64,000 nt of DNA from the NCBI GenBank assembly GCA_965205685.1, contig OZ242174.1, positions 285,231 to 349,230 on the forward strand, read 5' to 3'. Below the pieces are notes generated by a model. The model was not told the DNA's origin. It saw nothing but the letters and a program-made list of their open reading frames with translations, and ran no database searches. Shown here piece by piece: positions 45,849-57,423 of this stretch (position 1 is its first letter; every line of letters begins with the position of its first letter). This DNA is from Gammaproteobacteria bacterium. Lineage in GTDB: Bacteria > Pseudomonadota > Gammaproteobacteria > UBA4575. Made by a program: the position numbers and the translations under genes.

Positions 45849-46087
45849 ATATGCCTCCTCAAATAGGATGCTCCAGTTCCTGGTCAGGAAGTCCATGTCT
45901 GGCCCAGGGGTTGTCTGAATTGAAACACCTGCGGACCCTCCGGTTTGAATTATTTTAGGATGATCTATAATAATATATTTATCTATAATTATGATGAGTG
46001 TATATGTATTGTATACAGATCAAGAATTCTGATTTAATCTGTATTAATATATATAATTAATCTTATGATTTATAATAACCTATCGAT

Positions 46088-46684
46088 ATGACCTACACCA
46101 CTGAACATATTACCCAGACACTCAAGCGCGCCCGAGAGGCTCAAGCGCTCAGCCAGCGCACACTCGGCACCCAAGCCGGTGTGCCCCAGGGACATATCTC
46201 GAAAATCGAAAACGGGGCCGTGGACCTGCGTATATCGAGTCTGGTCGAGCTTGCACGCGTGCTGGGTTTGGAGGTCATGCTCGTGCCCCGCAAAAGCGTT
46301 TCAGCCGTGCAGGCCTTGGTGCGAAACACAGGGGGACTTGGCGAGGGACCTGCGCCCAAGGCACCTAGGGAATTAGGTCGATTGCAAGGCAGGATCGCCA
46401 ACCTTGTGCAAAAGCACCCCACTGTGCATGAGGTGGCGCAGCTGCACCGCCAGGCAAACGAATTGGCACATGTTCGTATCCCGCAGGACCACCTTGCAGT
46501 GATCAGGGCGGTGGAGGATCTGGTAGAGGAGTATTCCAGTGACAGCATGCGCACGGTTTCCCTGGTTGAGGCGTTTGAACGGATTCGCCGCCTGCGCAAT
46601 AAACTGGCCCATGGAGTTGAAGCTCAGCAGGATGATCCGCAAGTGCGCCCGGCCTATCGTTTGGACGAGGATGAGGATGGCTGA
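46088..46684 (+). CDS. hipB: HipB-like XRE-family HTH antitoxin with long C-terminal extension
   Basis: HTH LSQRTLGTQAGVPQGHISKIENG. Its stop overlaps the hipA start by 8 nt. Confidence 0.7.
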   Translation: MTYTTEHITQTLKRAREAQALSQRTLGTQAGVPQGHISKIENGAVDLRISSLVELARVLGLEVMLVPRKSVSAVQALVRNTGGLGEGPAPKAPRELGRLQGRIANLVQKHPTVHEVAQLHRQANELAHVRIPQDHLAVIRAVEDLVEEYSSDSMRTVSLVEAFERIRRLRNKLAHGVEAQQDDPQVRPAYRLDEDEDG

Positions 46685-47915
46685 TGTTGCGGCCTTGGAC
46701 GTGCTGCTCCACGGGGTGACGGTCGGTACGTTGACCCGGGTGCAGGGAGATCGCACACTCTTCGCCTTCCATGACGACTATATTAATGATGAAAACCGGG
46801 CCGTCCTCGGGCTCGACTTCAAGGACCAGTTCGGACGGTTGCTGACGGAATTCCCGCTGTATCAGACGAGGGTGATGCCATTTTTTTCCAATCTGTTACC
46901 GGAAGGTCGCATGCGCACGTACCTGGCCCGGCGCGCCGGGGTCGATTCCAAACGGGAGTTTTTCCTGCTCTGGGCTCTCGGCCATGATCTGCCCGGTGCG
47001 ATCACGATTCGCGCAGCAGATGGTGATGACTGGCCGCTGCAAACCGATGATAGTGACCTTGATGGGCAGAGTCACCACGCTCAGGCGCTGCGCTTTTCCT
47101 TGGCCGGTGTGCAGCTCAAGTTCTCGGCATTCGGAGAGATGCGCTCGGGGTTGAGCATCCCGGCAAAAGGCATCGGCGGCTCCTGGATCATCAAGCTGCC
47201 TTCACTAGAATTCGAAGGTGTGCCGGAGAATGAATACTCGATGATGACGCTGGCCCGCCTGCTTGGCATGGATGTGCCGGCACTGGACCTGATCGATATC
47301 GATGCGATTGACAACTTGCCCGAGGGGCTTGGCAGGCTCAAGGGACAGGCGCTGGTCATCGAGCGCTTCGACCGGCTCCCCGATGGCAGGGGCGAGCACA
47401 TCGAGGATTTTGCACAGGTCTTCGGTGTCTACCCCGAAGCCAAATACAACAAGGGCAATACCCGCAGCATTGCCAGGGTCATCGGTGCGGAAGGCACCTT
47501 GGACGACATTACCGAGTTCACTAGGCGATTGACGTTCAACACGCTGATTGGCAATGGCGATATGCACCTCAAGAACTGGTCGCTGATCTATCCGGACCAG
47601 CGCCGTGCGGCCTTGGCACCTGCTTACGACTTTGTTTCGACGATTGCCTATCTTCCCTATGACCAGGCTGCACTCAAAGTCAGTCGCACAAAGCGCTTTG
47701 ATGAATTCACCGAGGACGAGTTATCGCATCTTGCTTCGAAGGCGCGCTTGCCGGAAAAGCGGCTCCTTGATACGGCCCGGGAGACAGCCGCCTTGTTCCA
47801 TCAGTATTGGCAGGCTGAAAAGAACCATTTGCCCATGAAACGCGATGTCATAGACGCCATCGACACGCACATCAAGACGATCCCGATTGCACGGCAAAGG
47901 GCGTGTACTGCCTAG
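46677..47915 (+). CDS. hipA: HipA-family serine/threonine kinase toxin
   Basis: HipA N-terminal and C-terminal kinase-like motifs are present. Start at MADVAALDVLLHGVTVGTL within the longer ORF 46539..47915. Confidence 0.85.
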   Translation: MADVAALDVLLHGVTVGTLTRVQGDRTLFAFHDDYINDENRAVLGLDFKDQFGRLLTEFPLYQTRVMPFFSNLLPEGRMRTYLARRAGVDSKREFFLLWALGHDLPGAITIRAADGDDWPLQTDDSDLDGQSHHAQALRFSLAGVQLKFSAFGEMRSGLSIPAKGIGGSWIIKLPSLEFEGVPENEYSMMTLARLLGMDVPALDLIDIDAIDNLPEGLGRLKGQALVIERFDRLPDGRGEHIEDFAQVFGVYPEAKYNKGNTRSIARVIGAEGTLDDITEFTRRLTFNTLIGNGDMHLKNWSLIYPDQRRAALAPAYDFVSTIAYLPYDQAALKVSRTKRFDEFTEDELSHLASKARLPEKRLLDTARETAALFHQYWQAEKNHLPMKRDVIDAIDTHIKTIPIARQRACTA

Positions 47916-47999
47916 GTGAGCAGAGACACCACCAGTTCAATTCTCGAGGTGCGTACCCAGTCCATGCAGCACAAATTTTATCAACAGAATTTCCACGTC

Positions 48000-48040
48000 A
48001 AATGCACAGACCTGTGCATTGACAGTGTTTTTCTGGTGTT
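48000..48040 (+). terminator. hairpin plus T-rich tract after hipA
   Basis: AATGCACA-gacc-TGTGCATT followed by GTGTTTTTCTGGTGTTT. It could alternatively be an operator for the downstream operon. Coordinates are approximate. Confidence 0.35.
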
Positions 48041-55676: not shown

Positions 55677-56185
55677 TCATCAAATGACAAACAACCCAGC
55701 AACGCTTCCAGTTCCAGAACATTGTGCCTGCGAATCTCCAGAACATCCTTAGGAAAATTTGTCTTGTAGTTGTCTTGAGTCGTCAGTGTGGTTGGAAGCA
55801 AATTGTTCACCCGTGACTTGCACTCTGCACATGTGCTTGGCACCGGCTCATCGAGAATTTTTAGCAACAGTCCTTCGATGCAGGGTGTCGAGCCTATGAT
55901 CCGAATCTTTTTTGATTGGGCACGCTTCTGTATCGCTGCCGATATTTCCAGGTCGGTATCCAGCAAAGCTATAACCCGGTTGTATGCCGCATTCCTGCAT
56001 TGTTTGATGGCGTAGTCCACTACATGAGCCGGCCCTTTACCGTGCGCATTGCGAATCTTGGCACTCACTCCGCACCCGCGACCGACATAGAGAGATTTGA
56101 CGTGACAGAGAAATGCGCACTCGGTTTTACCCTCCCCTACCAGCAGGACGGTATGACGGGCAGCGCGCCATTCGCGTGAAGGCAT
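55673..56185 (-). CDS. RloB-like protein (partner of abortive-infection AAA ATPases)
   Basis: 170 aa with a VLLVGEGKTE start typical of the RloB/DUF4276-like TOPRIM-type family. 11 nt after the ATPase stop. Confidence 0.6.
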   Translation of the reverse strand: MPSREWRAARHTVLLVGEGKTECAFLCHVKSLYVGRGCGVSAKIRNAHGKGPAHVVDYAIKQCRNAAYNRVIALLDTDLEISAAIQKRAQSKKIRIIGSTPCIEGLLLKILDEPVPSTCAECKSRVNNLLPTTLTTQDNYKTNFPKDVLEIRRHNVLELEALLGCLSFDD

Positions 56186-56196
56186 CCGTGATCCCT

Positions 56197-57393
56197 TTAA
56201 AAATCAGGAACAGCGCCGTATGCACCGGCACGGTACTTGGCATACAGATTGTCATCCCGGCGAATACCCTTCATGTCACCGAGTCGCCAGGCCTCACTGT
56301 TGCCGTCTGGATCTTTTTCAATGAGCAGGACTTGGTCCTTTTGCAATTCATTGAGAATCTCGTGTGCATGGCATGTAAATATGATTTGAGCATTCTGCGG
56401 GTTGTGATCGCGATCGATGAAGAGATCAAGCAGCGCAATGATCATGTCTGGGTGCAGGTCCGCCTCAATCTCGTCGATGATGACGATGCCACCATGCTCT
56501 AGGGCTGGCAGGATCCTCTCCAGCAGAACAAATGCCGCCTGCGTGCCACTGGATTCATATTCGAGTGGTAGCTTATGCTCCTGTCCAGCCTTGCGGTGAA
56601 CACCAAAGGGAACATTGACCTCCTCACTCTTGCCGGACTGCCTTTCCACATACTTACGCGATTCAATGATGACTTCGGCAATACCCAAATCCAGACGGCT
56701 CAGGATAGCGGACATTTGCGCACGTAACGCCGGGCGGTCATGGAAGAAATCGGCTACATCGAACACGTCCCGCACATCAAAATGATCTCGACCGCTGTCG
56801 TACACGTTGGAGTAGAATTGCGAAAAATAATTGACCAGTCCCTGTGCGCACGGCACGTTGTATTGCGCCGAAGTCGAGATTAATGATGCGTTCGGGCGGA
56901 CTTTTTCGGCCTCACTGGCCGCAAAACCAAATTTCTGCTGGCGGATGTTGTAGGAAGAATCCGACTCGGACCAGTCCCGACGAAAAATAAAGCTGAAGAA
57001 CTTGCTGGTCTTGAGATACAAGGATTCATGCAGGACCCGCTTCGGGGTGACGGTCAGGTAATAGCGGTAAAACTGTCCCTGGTCCTCGAATTCAATCTCG
57101 AACTCGCTATGGGCCGAGTCGGAGAAAAAATGAGGATGTACCGGGATATCCTCCTCCGGTTTTATGGAAGTGAACGAATCTGCGATGAACCAACTCAGGA
57201 AAGACAGCGGCTTCAGCACGTTGGTCTTGCCGGAAGCATTGGGACCGATGACTGCAAGGACTTTCGACAGACGTGCACCTCCCGGACTCAGGAACACCAG
57301 GTCCGAGTTCGGCACCTGGCGATTGAGTACGAAAGAGACCTCCGTTTTCTCGGCAAACGAGAAAAAGTTCTTGAATCGGTATTTATGCAGCAT
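56197..57393 (-). CDS. AAA-family ATPase (AbiL/RloA-like, AAA_15/21)
   Basis: Walker A GPNASGKTN. Walker B/D-loop IVIIDEIEADLHP. Typical split ABC-type ATPase of two-gene defence modules. Confidence 0.75.
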   Translation of the reverse strand: MLHKYRFKNFFSFAEKTEVSFVLNRQVPNSDLVFLSPGGARLSKVLAVIGPNASGKTNVLKPLSFLSWFIADSFTSIKPEEDIPVHPHFFSDSAHSEFEIEFEDQGQFYRYYLTVTPKRVLHESLYLKTSKFFSFIFRRDWSESDSSYNIRQQKFGFAASEAEKVRPNASLISTSAQYNVPCAQGLVNYFSQFYSNVYDSGRDHFDVRDVFDVADFFHDRPALRAQMSAILSRLDLGIAEVIIESRKYVERQSGKSEEVNVPFGVHRKAGQEHKLPLEYESSGTQAAFVLLERILPALEHGGIVIIDEIEADLHPDMIIALLDLFIDRDHNPQNAQIIFTCHAHEILNELQKDQVLLIEKDPDGNSEAWRLGDMKGIRRDDNLYAKYRAGAYGAVPDF

Positions 57394-57423
57394 GAGCCCA
57401 CCTGGACAGTATAATAAAAGCAA

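What the first reader, a model, noticed from the sequence alone, without database searches (positions are those of the whole stretch)
45897..57423. AT-rich boundary followed by a mosaic toxin-antitoxin and defence island
The ~190-bp AT-rich stretch (45897-46087) marks a transition from housekeeping genes to a run of accessory modules. These are hipBA, an unknown two-gene operon, a GNAT acetyltransferase, abiEi/abiEii, a Fic protein, a graT/higB-like remnant with higA, and the ATPase-RloB-RES operon. GC is alternating, and the island ends at an ICE/prophage-like segment. Such islands are hotspots for uncharacterised defence systems.
Basis: partly seen in the sequence, partly recalled or inferred. 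Interest (0 to 1): 0.55.

Follow-up and report, generated by a model that had tools for sequence, protein, structure and literature searches.

The report
Mosaic toxin-antitoxin and defence island beside ICE
This 11.7-kb low-GC stretch is a real but ordinary island of toxin-antitoxin and anti-phage modules next to an integrated conjugative element, reshuffled between related genomes, and its one unnamed gene pair looks like an untested variant of the recently validated HipAD kinase defence system.

Summary
Window 45897-46087 is 28.8% GC, the most AT-rich 191-bp stretch in the 64 kb. From about 45860 to 57571 the GC is 51%, against 63-64% on both sides. HMM searches confirm hipBA, a GNAT, abiEi/abiEii, a Fic protein, higA and an ATPase-RloB-RES string. 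To the right lie an S24 repressor and PFGI-1-class ICE genes.

Three corrections:
- The AT-rich stretch is the promoter/operator region of this hipBA. It travels with that hipBA and is absent where a different hipBA sits there.
- No higB remnant is detectable.
- The "ATPase-RloB-RES operon" is AbiL (two genes) followed by a stand-alone aRES-type NADase.

Six related genomes or contigs carry different subsets, orders and orientations of the same modules. Four of them show the conserved porin/hyp280/SOUL genes on the left, and three show the S24 repressor gene on the right.

The "unknown two-gene operon" is a HipA_2-family kinase plus a 282-aa partner (phrog_21150, no Pfam or PADLOC model). In temperate phages the same pair sits directly after the lysogeny repressor gene, where E. 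coli phages carry the validated HipA-HipD system. The kinase family is shared with HipAD; the partner family is not.

Verdict: an ordinary defence island with one worthwhile lead.

The parts
45849..46087 (.). AT-rich intergenic region between SOUL (-) and hipB (+). It is the likely hipBA promoter/operator, with three ATGATCTATAAT-like repeats.
   Evidence: 28.8% GC, the lowest in the window. Repeat family D1 at 45960, 46034 and 46065. The motifs are conserved upstream of orthologous hipB in L001 and L003. A promoter-like site lies at 45945-45974 on the + strand (weak evidence).
46088..46684 (+). hipB: a 198-aa HTH_3 antitoxin/repressor with a long C-terminal extension.
   Evidence: PF01381 at 8.6e-11. 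Its end overlaps the start of hipA. Orthologues of 198 aa occur in L001, L003 and L029.
46677..47915 (+). hipA: a Ser/Thr kinase toxin of 412 aa.
   Evidence: Couple_hipA 3.7e-22 and HipA_C 7.7e-46. It aligns to HipT and HipA structures with the GVQxK, GNxDMHLKN and APAYD motifs intact.
48106..48918 (+). HipA_2-family kinase of 270 aa (phrog_3162), the first gene of a HipAD-like pair.
48915..49763 (+). 282-aa partner protein (phrog_21150). It overlaps the kinase gene by 4 nt and has no Pfam, NCBIfam or PADLOC model.
49832..50317 (+). GNAT acetyltransferase of 161 aa, Mpr1-like. It is not a TacT/AtaT-type toxin.
   Evidence: PF00583 at 4.5e-15. Nearest solved structures are 4H89 (3e-36) and Mpr1 (6e-15). 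No antitoxin ORF fits in the 68-nt upstream gap. It is 94-98% identical in L001, L002 and L030.
50345..51139 (-). abiEii nucleotidyltransferase toxin.
   Evidence: PF08843 at 2.4e-40 and PADLOC AbiEii at 1.6e-110. The GGTAL...SEDIDL NTase motif is visible in the sequence.
51136..51945 (-). abiEi antitoxin/repressor, overlapping abiEii by 4 nt.
   Evidence: AbiEi_1 at 3.1e-53, AbiEi_4 at 1.8e-6, and PADLOC AbiEi at 3.6e-94.
52069..53562 (-). Fic-domain protein with an N-terminal wHTH-like region and a non-canonical active-site motif, QPFDDLNKRVSR.
   Evidence: PF02661 at 4.6e-8. PADLOC PDC-S04 at 1.4e-12 and SoFic at 2e-10. In the alignment to FICD, IHPFIDGNGRTSR aligns with LQPFDDLNKRVSR. The same motif occurs in the L030 orthologue.
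53774..54073 (+). Solo higA (GraA/HigA-family HTH antitoxin) with no detectable toxin.
   Evidence: HTH_3 at 1.8e-8. PDB matches to VapI, GraA and HigA at 2e-27 to 1e-10. There is no HigB signal upstream.
54080..54361 (-). orf93, a small conserved ORF that travels with higA. Its function is unknown.
   Evidence: No family found. The N-terminal 46 aa are 85% identical in L004 and L030, and the block 53742-54368 is 89% identical in L030.
54447..55658 (-). aRES-type stand-alone NADase, made of a HEPN_RES_NTD1 zinc ribbon and a RES domain.
   Evidence: PF18870 at 5.2e-16 and PF08808 at 8.4e-16. The four ribbon Cys residues and R234, E255 and S356 are invariant in 24 homologues. The gene stands alone in Halomonas and Ralstonia. 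This domain pair is how aRES genes were defined in bioRxiv 10.64898/2026.01.28.702374.
55673..56185 (-). AbiLii / RloB-like protein.
   Evidence: PF13707 at 1.5e-9 and PADLOC AbiLii at 2.3e-16.
56197..57423 (-). AbiLi AAA_21 ATPase. The true start is probably 57393 (MLHKY...).
   Evidence: PF13304 at 1.7e-34 and PADLOC AbiLi at 7e-79. The L030 orthologue is 398 aa. It runs in the same direction as the S24 gene and lies 148 nt downstream of it.
57572..58252 (-). cI/LexA-like S24 repressor, the conserved right-hand anchor of the island.
   Evidence: Peptidase_S24 at 2.2e-27. It is 95% identical in L002 over the 150 residues that contig holds, and 90% in L030. Only its last 38 residues are visible in L003, at 84%. 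Extra copies of its 3' end lie inside the islands of L003, L029 and L030.
58331..63559 (+). PFGI-1/ICEclc-class ICE genes: ParB, a DUF2857-like gene (my recognition only), vapBC, PFL_4669 and an STY4534 family protein.
   Evidence: TIGR03764 at 268 bits, TIGR03761 at 169 bits, STY4534_fam at 143 bits (below its cutoff of 160) and VapC at 1e-19.

Best explanation
Window ~45860-57571 is an accretion hotspot for self-contained toxin-antitoxin and abortive-infection modules. It lies between a conserved chromosomal gene block (porin, hyp280, SOUL) and the cI-like S24 repressor gene at the visible edge of a PFGI-1-class integrative conjugative element.

Each module is an independent unit with its own regulator:
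- hipBA: a kinase toxin and an HTH repressor that binds the AT-rich operator repeats.
- A HipAD-like pair: a HipA_2 kinase plus a phrog_21150 partner.
- An Mpr1-like GNAT.
- abiEi/abiEii.
- A Fic protein with a degenerate motif.
- A solo higA with orf93.
- AbiL (ATPase plus RloB).
- A stand-alone aRES NADase.

Modules are gained, swapped, inverted and eroded by recombination. At least some insertions happen at the 3' end of the repressor gene. This is the same slot, directly downstream of the lysogeny repressor, where temperate phages keep exclusion genes such as rexAB or hipAD.

The inferred function is twofold. The modules would stabilise the element and region by addiction, and they would provide abortive-infection immunity through translation arrest (kinases), NAD+ depletion (aRES), nucleotidyl transfer (AbiEii) and ATPase-controlled effector release (AbiL).

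Shown here: gene content, composition, variability between genomes, repressor-end scars, and conserved catalytic residues.

Inferred only: every activity, and the direction of gain versus loss.
For: Composition: 51% GC against 63-64% on both flanks, with module-by-module GC of 44-59%.

Module identities.

Comparative evidence, reading from the chromosomal side to the ICE side:
- L002: SOUL | a different hipAB, inverted | GNAT | S24. The island is only about 2.3 kb.
- L001: SOUL | hipBA | GNAT | a second hipBA | a GIY-YIG protein.
- L003: SOUL | hipBA | kinase pair | S24 3' fragment | a third hipBA | abiEii fragment | truncated hipBA | AbiL without RES | S24.
- L030: hipA fragment | Xre-RES | kinase pair | AbiL | hipBA | abiEi alone | Fic-GNAT overlapping by 4 nt | S24 fragment | higA-orf93 | S24 | ParB.
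- L004: a fragment of the partner gene | higA | a GmrSD fragment | a cysteine-desulfurase/PAPS-reductase-like cluster.
- L029: RES fused to the abiEi N-terminus.

Block breakpoints coincide with module ends, at 47887/47974, 49763/49821, 50330, 51126/51980, 53742/54368, 55658-55673 and 57473/57571.

GNAT is 94-98% identical between genomes whose flanking SOUL is 86% identical.

The phage parallel: the order cro <- | cI -> kinase -> partner occurs in IMG/VR prophages L034-L038, in Alteromonas phage P24 and in a Marinobacter phage-plasmid. In Acinetobacter phage qsb1 the pair instead follows a divergent pair of Arc-like regulator genes. Escherichia phage PhiR5_1 has cI -> HipA -> HipD. L038 carries a cI 3' fragment right after the pair.
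Against: - No integrase, att repeat, tRNA or tRNA fragment is visible in or beside the island. The insertion mechanism and the true ICE boundary are therefore unknown.
- The window's own island has no S24 3' scar.
- Most of the related sequences are metagenome assemblies, so some rearrangements could be assembly errors. However, the S24 junction recurs in independent assemblies.
- Erosion of a larger ancestral island could explain part of the pattern without new gains.
- No activity has been tested. Several modules look incomplete (solo higA) or non-canonical (Fic).
- Promoter-like sites are not significantly enriched: 16 found against 10 +/- 2.9 expected.
Confidence: 0.8

Rival explanations
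1. The whole 45.9-57.6 kb stretch is internal cargo of the ICE, a variable region at its repressor end. It moves with the ICE, whose end lies in or near the AT-rich stretch next to SOUL.
For: - S24 -> AbiLi -> RloB -> RES run in the same direction.
- Repressor 3' scars inside the relatives' islands suggest insertions on the ICE side.
- In phages the same kinase pair is internal cargo next to the repressor.
- ICE genes follow directly.
Against: - No att repeat or tRNA fragment lies at the left edge.
- hipBA next to SOUL has near-backbone GC (57-59%, GC3 up to 70%) and is conserved at that position in L001 and L003. In L029 it lies next to hyp280, and L030 keeps only a hipA fragment there.
- parA and dnaB, which by my recollection normally precede parB in this ICE class, are missing. 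The ICE may therefore be a fixed remnant rather than a mobile unit.
Confidence: 0.4
2. There is no ongoing gain. A large ancestral TA island was inherited vertically and is simply decaying differently in each reduced symbiont genome.
For: Gene fragments are common: abiEii, hipA and S24 fragments in L003, L029 and L030, a partner-gene fragment in L004, solo abiEi in L030 and solo higA in the window. The relatives' chromosomes are small, 1.6-2.1 Mb.
Against: - Different, non-orthologous hipBA types occupy the same slot in opposite orientation (L002).
- Module order and orientation differ, not only presence.
- GNAT and higA are far more similar between genomes (95-98%) than the flanking core genes (66-92%).
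- The aRES gene is present next to AbiL only in the window lineage.
- The same modules occur in unrelated bacteria and in phages.
Confidence: 0.2
3. For the two-gene operon: it is not a toxin-antitoxin defence pair. It could be a kinase that regulates a nuclease-fold effector, or a lysogeny-control accessory of temperate elements.
For: - The partner is large (282 aa) and has two domains.
- It shows no similarity to HipB, HipS or HipD.
- It sits next to repressor genes.
Against: - No PD-(D/E)xK catalytic motif is conserved. Only P22 and E28 are invariant across the wide family.
- The kinase belongs to the same PHROG as the validated HipAD toxin and keeps all its catalytic residues.
- The gene order, the 4-nt overlap and the sizes equal those of HipAD.
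Confidence: 0.25

Closest known systems
Defence islands and cargo hotspots of integrated mobile elements (general concept from established knowledge: Makarova 2011, Doron 2018, P2/P4 and SXT hotspots; a recent treatment is PMC13586616, seen by title and abstract only)
   Same: A cluster of unrelated TA and Abi systems with deviant GC. It lies at the edge of an integrated element, varies between close relatives and shows modular swapping.
   Different: No integrase, att site or flanking repeats are visible. The host appears to be an uncultured, small-genome gammaproteobacterium, judged sponge-associated only from record titles such as 'Porisulfidus' and the SB0662 MAGs. The locus is unusually rich in Hip-type kinases.
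HipAD (DS-6), a prophage-encoded HipA-family kinase plus HipD. Sources: DefensePredictor, PMC13092281; Brenes & Laub 2025 (not held); Escherichia phage PhiR5_1 annotation.
   Same: - The kinase belongs to the same families (PF20613 and phrog_3162).
- The catalytic Asp is at an equivalent position: D137 here, and D139A abolishes defence in DS-6.
- The kinase gene comes first, with a 4-nt overlap onto a partner of about 280 aa.
- In phages the pair sits directly downstream of cI.
   Different: - The partner is a different family: phrog_21150 against phrog_5137 (DUF3037 + DUF1829).
- No similarity was found by BLASTP, HMMER or hhalign.
- The kinases share only about 39% identity, and only over the 46-residue catalytic core.
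- The pair here is untested.
Canonical hipBA (E. coli, Shewanella)
   Same: An HTH HipB gene upstream, overlapping a HipA gene with Couple_hipA and HipA_C domains and intact kinase motifs. The upstream region carries repeated operator-like motifs.
   Different: HipB is 198 aa with a roughly 130-residue C-terminal extension. The operators are AT-rich ATGATCTATAAT-like repeats, not the TATCCN8GGATA I recall from E. coli.
AbiE (AbiEi/AbiEii type IV TA)
   Same: Both genes are present, overlap by 4 nt, match strongly to PADLOC models, and the NTase motif is present.
   Different: Nothing notable. Relatives show only fragments or a solo abiEi.
AbiL (AbiLi ATPase + AbiLii RloB)
   Same: Both PADLOC models match, at 7e-79 and 2.3e-16. 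The genes are adjacent and run in the same direction.
   Different: It is followed after 15 nt by an aRES gene. That gene is absent from the orthologous AbiL loci in L003 and L030.
aRES (antiphage stand-alone RES-domain NADase; Osterman et al. 2026, bioRxiv 10.64898/2026.01.28.702374)
   Same: It has the PF18870 + PF08808 two-domain architecture used to define aRES. The R, E and S residues and the zinc-ribbon cysteines are invariant. It stands alone in other genomes.
   Different: Here it is tightly appended to an AbiL operon. The validated members are enterobacterial, and this one is untested.
Lambda cI-rexAB arrangement (established knowledge)
   Same: Exclusion genes lie immediately downstream of the repressor gene and run in the same direction. 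Here S24 -> AbiLi -> RloB -> aRES, and in phages cI -> kinase -> partner.
   Different: The proteins are unrelated to RexAB. Co-transcription with the repressor gene is not shown.

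Membership tests
Defence/TA island (operational) | Several unrelated TA or defence systems clustered within a few kb | tested here: met
   Between 46.1 and 57.4 kb: hipBA, a HipAD-like pair, AbiE, AbiL, aRES, Fic and a solo higA.
Defence/TA island (operational) | Variable content at a conserved locus in related genomes | tested here: met
   Six related loci have different content, order and orientation. L002, L003, L004 and L030 share the left-hand anchors, and L002, L003 and L030 share the right-hand S24 anchor.
Defence/TA island (operational) | Deviant base composition | tested here: met
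   51.3% GC against 63.4% and 63.5% on the flanks.
hipBA | HTH HipB gene upstream of, and coupled to, a HipA gene with Couple_hipA and HipA_C domains | tested here: met
   The genes overlap by 8 nt (46677-46684).
hipBA | Intact kinase motifs (Gly-rich loop, catalytic D/N, Mg-binding D) | tested here: met
   SLAGVQLKFSA, GNGDMHLKNWS and APAYDF align to HipT and HipA.
HipAD (DS-6) | HipA_2 / phrog_3162 kinase with the catalytic Asp | tested here: met
   PF20613 at 42.8 bits and phrog_3162 at 1.3e-13. DS-6A matches phrog_3162 at 4e-81. D137 is invariant.
HipAD (DS-6) | Partner HipD with DUF3037 + DUF1829 (phrog_5137) | tested here: not met
   No DUF3037 or DUF1829 hit in 44 family members at E<=1. 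hhalign probability 0.05%. hmmsearch and BLASTP were negative. The partner matches phrog_21150, not phrog_5137.
HipAD (DS-6) | Kinase-first bicistron with overlapping genes, carried on prophages next to the repressor gene | tested here: met
   The overlap is 4 nt here (48915-48918). The same pair sits after cI-like repressor genes in L034-L038, phage P24 and the Marinobacter plasmid, and after Arc-like regulator genes in Acinetobacter phage qsb1. HipAD sits after cI in PhiR5_1.
HipAD (DS-6) | Anti-phage protection that depends on kinase activity | not testable with these tools
   This needs an experiment.
AbiE | AbiEi (wHTH + AbiEi_1) with an AbiEii NTase in one operon | tested here: met
AbiL | AbiLi AAA_21 ATPase plus AbiLii RloB-like protein | tested here: met
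   Walker A (GPNASGKT) and Walker B (IIDEIE) are visible in the sequence.
aRES | A single protein with PF18870 and PF08808 domains | tested here: met
.
aRES | Not dependent on an operon partner (stand-alone) | tested here: inconclusive
   It stands alone in Halomonas, Ralstonia and L029. Here it lies 15 nt after RloB and may be co-transcribed.
aRES | Conserved RES catalytic residues | tested here: met
   R234, E255 and S356 are invariant in 24 homologues.
Xre-RES type II TA | Cognate Xre/MbcA-ParS antitoxin gene upstream | tested here: not met
   The upstream gene is RloB. A genuine Xre-RES pair exists in L030 for contrast.
higBA / graTA | HigA-family HTH antitoxin | tested here: met
higBA / graTA | HigB/GraT toxin gene or a recognisable remnant | tested here: not met
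Fic AMPylase / SoFic | Canonical HxFx(D/E)GNGRxxR motif | tested here: not met
   The motif reads QPFDDLNKRVSR when aligned to FICD's HPFIDGNGRTSR. It is conserved in the L030 orthologue.
GNAT-type TA toxin (TacT/AtaT) | Upstream RHH/DUF1778 antitoxin and a toxin-type GNAT | tested here: not met
   Only 68 nt lie upstream, with no ORF. The nearest structures are Mpr1-like.
PFGI-1/ICEclc-class ICE | Class marker genes (TIGR03764 ParB, TIGR03761 PFL_4669, STY4534) | tested here: met
   STY4534 scores below its curated cutoff.
PFGI-1/ICEclc-class ICE | Integrase, type IV secretion and relaxase genes, and attL/attR repeats | not testable with these tools
   The window ends at 64000 inside the element. 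The source chromosome could not be fetched.

The most novel reading that the evidence does not exclude
The pair at 48106-49763 would be a distinct, uncharacterised toxin-antitoxin-type abortive-infection system. It consists of a HipA_2/phrog_3162 kinase and a phrog_21150 protein.

The HipAD kinase toxin would be controlled by a new antitoxin or sensor family with a restriction-endonuclease-like fold. The partner family has about 620 clusters at 50% identity. The pair occurs on prophages, phage-plasmids and ICE-side islands of Gammaproteobacteria, in the slot directly after the lysogeny repressor gene.

The recurrent repressor 3'-end scars would then mark a general route by which such cargo is exchanged between integrated elements.
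Probability: 0.5. Interest if true: 0.55.

Novelty: new member of a known kind. Interest (0 to 1): 0.4.

Why it matters
As an island, this adds one more example to a well-known pattern. It shows that small-genome, apparently sponge-associated symbionts keep a fast-turning TA and defence hotspot next to an ICE.

The useful product is more specific. The island points to a two-gene module that current tools (Pfam, NCBIfam, PADLOC v2) do not name. That module shares its kinase family and its genomic slot with the experimentally validated HipAD system but uses a different partner family.

Testing the pair would show whether Hip-type kinases are a swappable toxin chassis for several antitoxin or sensor families in phage defence. 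It would also give annotation pipelines a new model.

Tried and rejected
- **higB remnant.** I translated three frames of 53456-53778 and ran Pfam at E<=1 and PDB at E<=10. Nothing matched. Rejected.
- **att sites and integration target.** ARAGORN on the whole window, Rfam at E<=1 on 44000-58500 and repeat searches in 45700-58400 found no tRNA, no tRNA fragment and only chance-level repeats.
- **S24 3' scar inside the window's own island.** None found by tblastn or blastn.
- **RES as a third AbiL component.** Rejected. AbiL occurs without RES in L003 and L030, and RES occurs without AbiL in L029, Halomonas and Ralstonia.
- **Partner protein as PADLOC PDC-M66B.** The kinase hits PDC-M66A weakly (3e-5), but no PADLOC model matches any of 44 partner-family members.
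- **Partner protein as HipD.** Negative by Pfam, hhalign, hmmsearch, BLASTP and PHROG assignment. An N-terminal resemblance seen by eye (…P…E..…G) has no statistical support.
- **GNAT as a TA toxin.** Rejected.
- **Fetching the source chromosome.** Exact-protein look-ups for SOUL (two start choices) and for the 100%-identical RES protein P0121 found nothing on record.
- **Tool limits.** The afdb50 fold library was unavailable. The Brenes & Laub 2025 paper is not held. Alignment A3 was too divergent for a viral-contig scan, so A1 was used instead.

Full report
**1. Observation**

The AT-rich stretch exists exactly where stated. Window 45897-46087 is 28.8% GC. The lowest-GC 191-bp window of the entire 64 kb (25.7%) lies at 45935-46125, and the next lowest anywhere is 36.1%.

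The surrounding composition shift is also real. GC is 63.4% for 1-45000, 51.3% for 45897-57571 and 63.5% for 57572-64000. Individual genes in the island range from 44% (orf93) to 59% (hipB).

The gene to the left is a SOUL-family lipoprotein. It most likely starts at 45848 (MKRRYPILL...) rather than 45896. Further left lie a 280-aa hypothetical protein, a porin and a glutamate dehydrogenase.

**2. Gene content**

- hipB (46088-46684, HTH_3, 198 aa) overlaps hipA (46677-47915, Couple_hipA + HipA_C). HipA keeps intact kinase motifs.
- The 'unknown two-gene operon' is a 270-aa HipA_2-family kinase (48106-48918, PF20613 at 42.8 bits) and a 282-aa protein with no model (48915-49763).
- The GNAT (49832-50317) is Mpr1-like.
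- abiEii/abiEi (50345-51945) match PADLOC models at 1e-110 and 4e-94.
- The Fic protein (52069-53562) has the motif QPFDDLNKRVSR in place of HPFxDGNGRxxR.
- higA (53774-54073) matches GraA and HigA structures.
- A small ORF (54080-54361) always accompanies higA.
- On the minus strand come AbiLi (56197-57423, PADLOC 7e-79), AbiLii/RloB (55673-56185) and a HEPN_RES_NTD1 + RES protein (54447-55658).

To the right lie a cI/LexA-like S24 repressor gene (57572-58252) and then ICE genes. These are TIGR03764 PFGI-1-class ParB (268 bits), vapBC, TIGR03761 PFL_4669 (169 bits) and an STY4534-family protein.

The only item I could not confirm is the higB/graT remnant. No frame upstream of higA gives any Pfam or PDB signal.

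**3. Is it an island? Comparison with relatives**

A scan of species-representative genomes with the SOUL protein found four syntenic relatives, all uncultured Gammaproteobacteria with SOUL 68-86% identical. More distant hits include a 'Porisulfidus' MAG. Exact-protein look-ups added two more loci, L029 and L030.

The loci compare as follows:

| Locus | Content, from the chromosomal side to the ICE side |
|---|---|
| L002 | SOUL, a non-orthologous hipBA in the opposite orientation, GNAT, then the 3' end of S24 directly. The island is about 2.3 kb. |
| L001 | hipBA, GNAT, a second hipBA, a GIY-YIG protein. |
| L003 | hipBA, the kinase pair, an extra copy of the last ~100 nt of S24, a third hipBA, an abiEii fragment, a truncated hipBA, AbiL without RES, S24. 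|
| L030 | a hipA fragment, a true Xre-RES pair, the kinase pair, AbiL, another hipBA, abiEi alone, Fic overlapping GNAT by 4 nt, an S24 3' fragment, higA-orf93, S24, ParB. |
| L004 | a fragment of the partner gene, higA, a GmrSD fragment, and a cysteine-desulfurase/PAPS-reductase-like cluster. |
| L029 | the RES gene fused to the first 33 codons of abiEi. |

Alignment blocks end at module boundaries. GNAT and higA are 95-98% identical between genomes whose neighbouring core genes are 66-92% identical. The island is real and mosaic.

**4. The AT-rich stretch**

The stretch contains three ATGATCTATAAT-like repeats. It is conserved, repeats included, upstream of the orthologous hipB in L001 and L003. 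L002 has a different hipBA there and lacks the stretch.

It is therefore best read as the promoter/operator region of this hipBA. It happens to be the first element of the island, and it is not an integration scar. Homology to L002 ends at 45859.

**5. The right-hand edge**

S24, AbiLi, RloB and the RES gene all run in the same direction. The S24 gene anchors the right side of the island in three genomes.

Extra copies of the S24 3' end sit inside the islands of L003, L029 and L030. This is the signature expected if new cargo recombines in at the repressor gene's 3' end and regenerates that end.

The window's own island has no such scar. It also has no att-like repeats, tRNA or tRNA fragment. 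I cannot say whether the island lies inside or just outside the ICE, because the window ends within the ICE and the source chromosome could not be retrieved.

**6. The ATPase-RloB-RES string**

The RES protein has both PF18870 and PF08808 domains. A 2026 preprint from the Sorek laboratory retained genes with this domain pair as 'aRES'. These are stand-alone antiphage RES proteins that deplete NAD+ by forming ADPR-1''-phosphate.

In 24 homologues the four zinc-ribbon cysteines and the R, E and S residues are invariant. Homologues in Halomonas and Ralstonia stand alone. The orthologous AbiL operons in L003 and L030 lack the RES gene. The string is therefore AbiL plus an independent aRES gene placed 15 nt downstream.

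**7. The two-gene operon**

*Partner family.* It is small. There are 137 clusters at 90% identity in 5.8 billion, and 624 representatives at 50% identity with E<=0.001. Members are uniformly 275-300 aa. None has a Pfam, NCBIfam or PADLOC model, even among distant members.

*Link to the kinase.* A HipA_2 kinase gene precedes the partner gene, usually with a 4-nt overlap. This holds in the sponge-symbiont relatives, in Pseudohongiella and in another lineage. One locus has a decayed kinase gene and one lacks it.

*Phage context.* Distant homologues of both genes occur together in temperate phages and a phage-plasmid:
- In IMG/VR prophages L034-L038, Alteromonas phage P24 and Marinobacter sp. M3C plasmid unnamed2, they lie immediately downstream of the lysogeny repressor gene.
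- In Acinetobacter phage vB_AbaS_qsb1 they follow a divergent pair of Arc-like regulator genes.
- The kinases fall in phrog_3162 and the partners in phrog_21150.

*Relation to HipAD.* The literature search showed that a HipA-family kinase with a non-HipB partner was recently validated as an anti-phage system. This is DS-6, or HipAD (DefensePredictor, PMC13092281, citing Brenes & Laub 2025).

From that paper's supplement I took the DS-6 sequences. The comparison gives:
- DS-6A is 249 aa, matches phrog_3162 at 4e-81, and matches my kinase-family HMM at 26.9 bits.
- The DS-6 genes overlap by 4 nt with the kinase first, and D139A abolishes defence.
- In Escherichia phage PhiR5_1 the genes are annotated HipA toxin and HipD antitoxin. 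They sit directly after cI.
- DS-6B (DUF3037 + DUF1829, phrog_5137) shows no detectable similarity to the partner here.

The pair in the window is therefore HipAD-like in kinase, architecture and genomic niche, but it has a different partner family. By analogy, I infer that the kinase is a growth-arresting toxin, that the partner holds it in check, and that infection releases it. Nothing here tests that inference.

**8. Verdict**

The finding is correct and, as an island, ordinary. It is a mosaic TA and defence hotspot at the repressor end of an ICE, and most of its modules are members of known families.

Three things go beyond the ordinary:
- The unnamed HipAD-like pair.
- The repeated repressor-3'-end scars in relatives, and in one prophage (L038).
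- The density of Hip-type kinases at this locus.

I rate interest at 0.4. I class the island as a new member of a known kind. The kinase pair is the most novel reading not excluded by the evidence.

Noticed in passing
L003 5433-5543; L029 6186-6275; L030 17356-17430; L038 6256-6390: Extra copies of the last 75-110 nt of the S24/cI repressor gene lie inside the islands of three relatives. A cI 3' fragment also lies just after the kinase pair in one prophage. This suggests that cargo is exchanged by recombination anchored in the repressor gene's 3' end. The window's own island has none.
   Followed up: partly
window 52069-53562; L030 15389-16831: The Fic protein has QPFDD(L/V)NKRVSR instead of HPFx(D/E)GNGRxxR, so the catalytic His is replaced by Gln and the motif resembles Doc's NKR. 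It also has an SxxxEG inhibitory-helix-like motif. The degenerate motif is conserved in a 60%-identical orthologue, so the gene is not a pseudogene. In L030 the Fic gene overlaps the GNAT gene by 4 nt.
   Followed up: partly
window 46088-47915 and 48106-48918; L001, L002, L003, L029, L030: Hip-type kinases are strikingly over-represented at this one locus. Each genome has one to three hipBA pairs of different types, plus fragments, and four of the genomes also have the HipA_2 pair. HipB here is 198 aa with a long C-terminal extension.
   Followed up: partly
L004 95-6788: The island of relative L004 carries other genes. There is a weak PAPS-reductase-like protein, a class-V aminotransferase (cysteine-desulfurase type), 735-aa and 294-aa unknown proteins, DUF6339 and a GmrSD_N fragment. 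This may be a DNA sulfur-modification or restriction cluster.
   Followed up: no
L029 3697-4932: The RES (aRES-type) gene in this relative begins with the first 33 codons of abiEi (76% identical). It is a chimeric gene at a recombination junction.
   Followed up: no
window 57424-57571: The gap between S24 and AbiLi contains a near-perfect palindrome, AATTAACATAATTATGTTAATT, just upstream of the AbiLi start, and a promoter-like site (57471-57444 on the minus strand). This may be an operator.
   Followed up: no
window 60689-61345: A vapB(Arc/FitA-like)/vapC PIN toxin-antitoxin pair at about 59% GC is embedded among the 63-68% GC ICE genes. It is followed by a Spy/CpxP-like periplasmic protein gene (61537-62073); both namings rest on my reading of the sequence.
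   Followed up: no
window 37000-42500: Relatives L003 and L004 align only patchily to this stretch. It encodes a Sel1-repeat protein (39461-40615), a 508-aa and a 231-aa secreted or lipoprotein-like ORF, and a glutamate dehydrogenase. It may be a second variable segment with symbiosis-type genes.
   Followed up: no
window 29755-29945: This is the second most AT-rich 191-bp stretch of the window (36.1% GC). I did not examine it.
   Followed up: no
L021 7395-12855 (Pseudohongiella): In Pseudohongiella the kinase pair sits between a ParE/Phd pair and a cluster of a methyltransferase-HNH protein, an SLFN-g3 helicase with an S24 domain, a MazG-like protein and a DNA methylase. This is another defence-type neighbourhood.
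   Followed up: no
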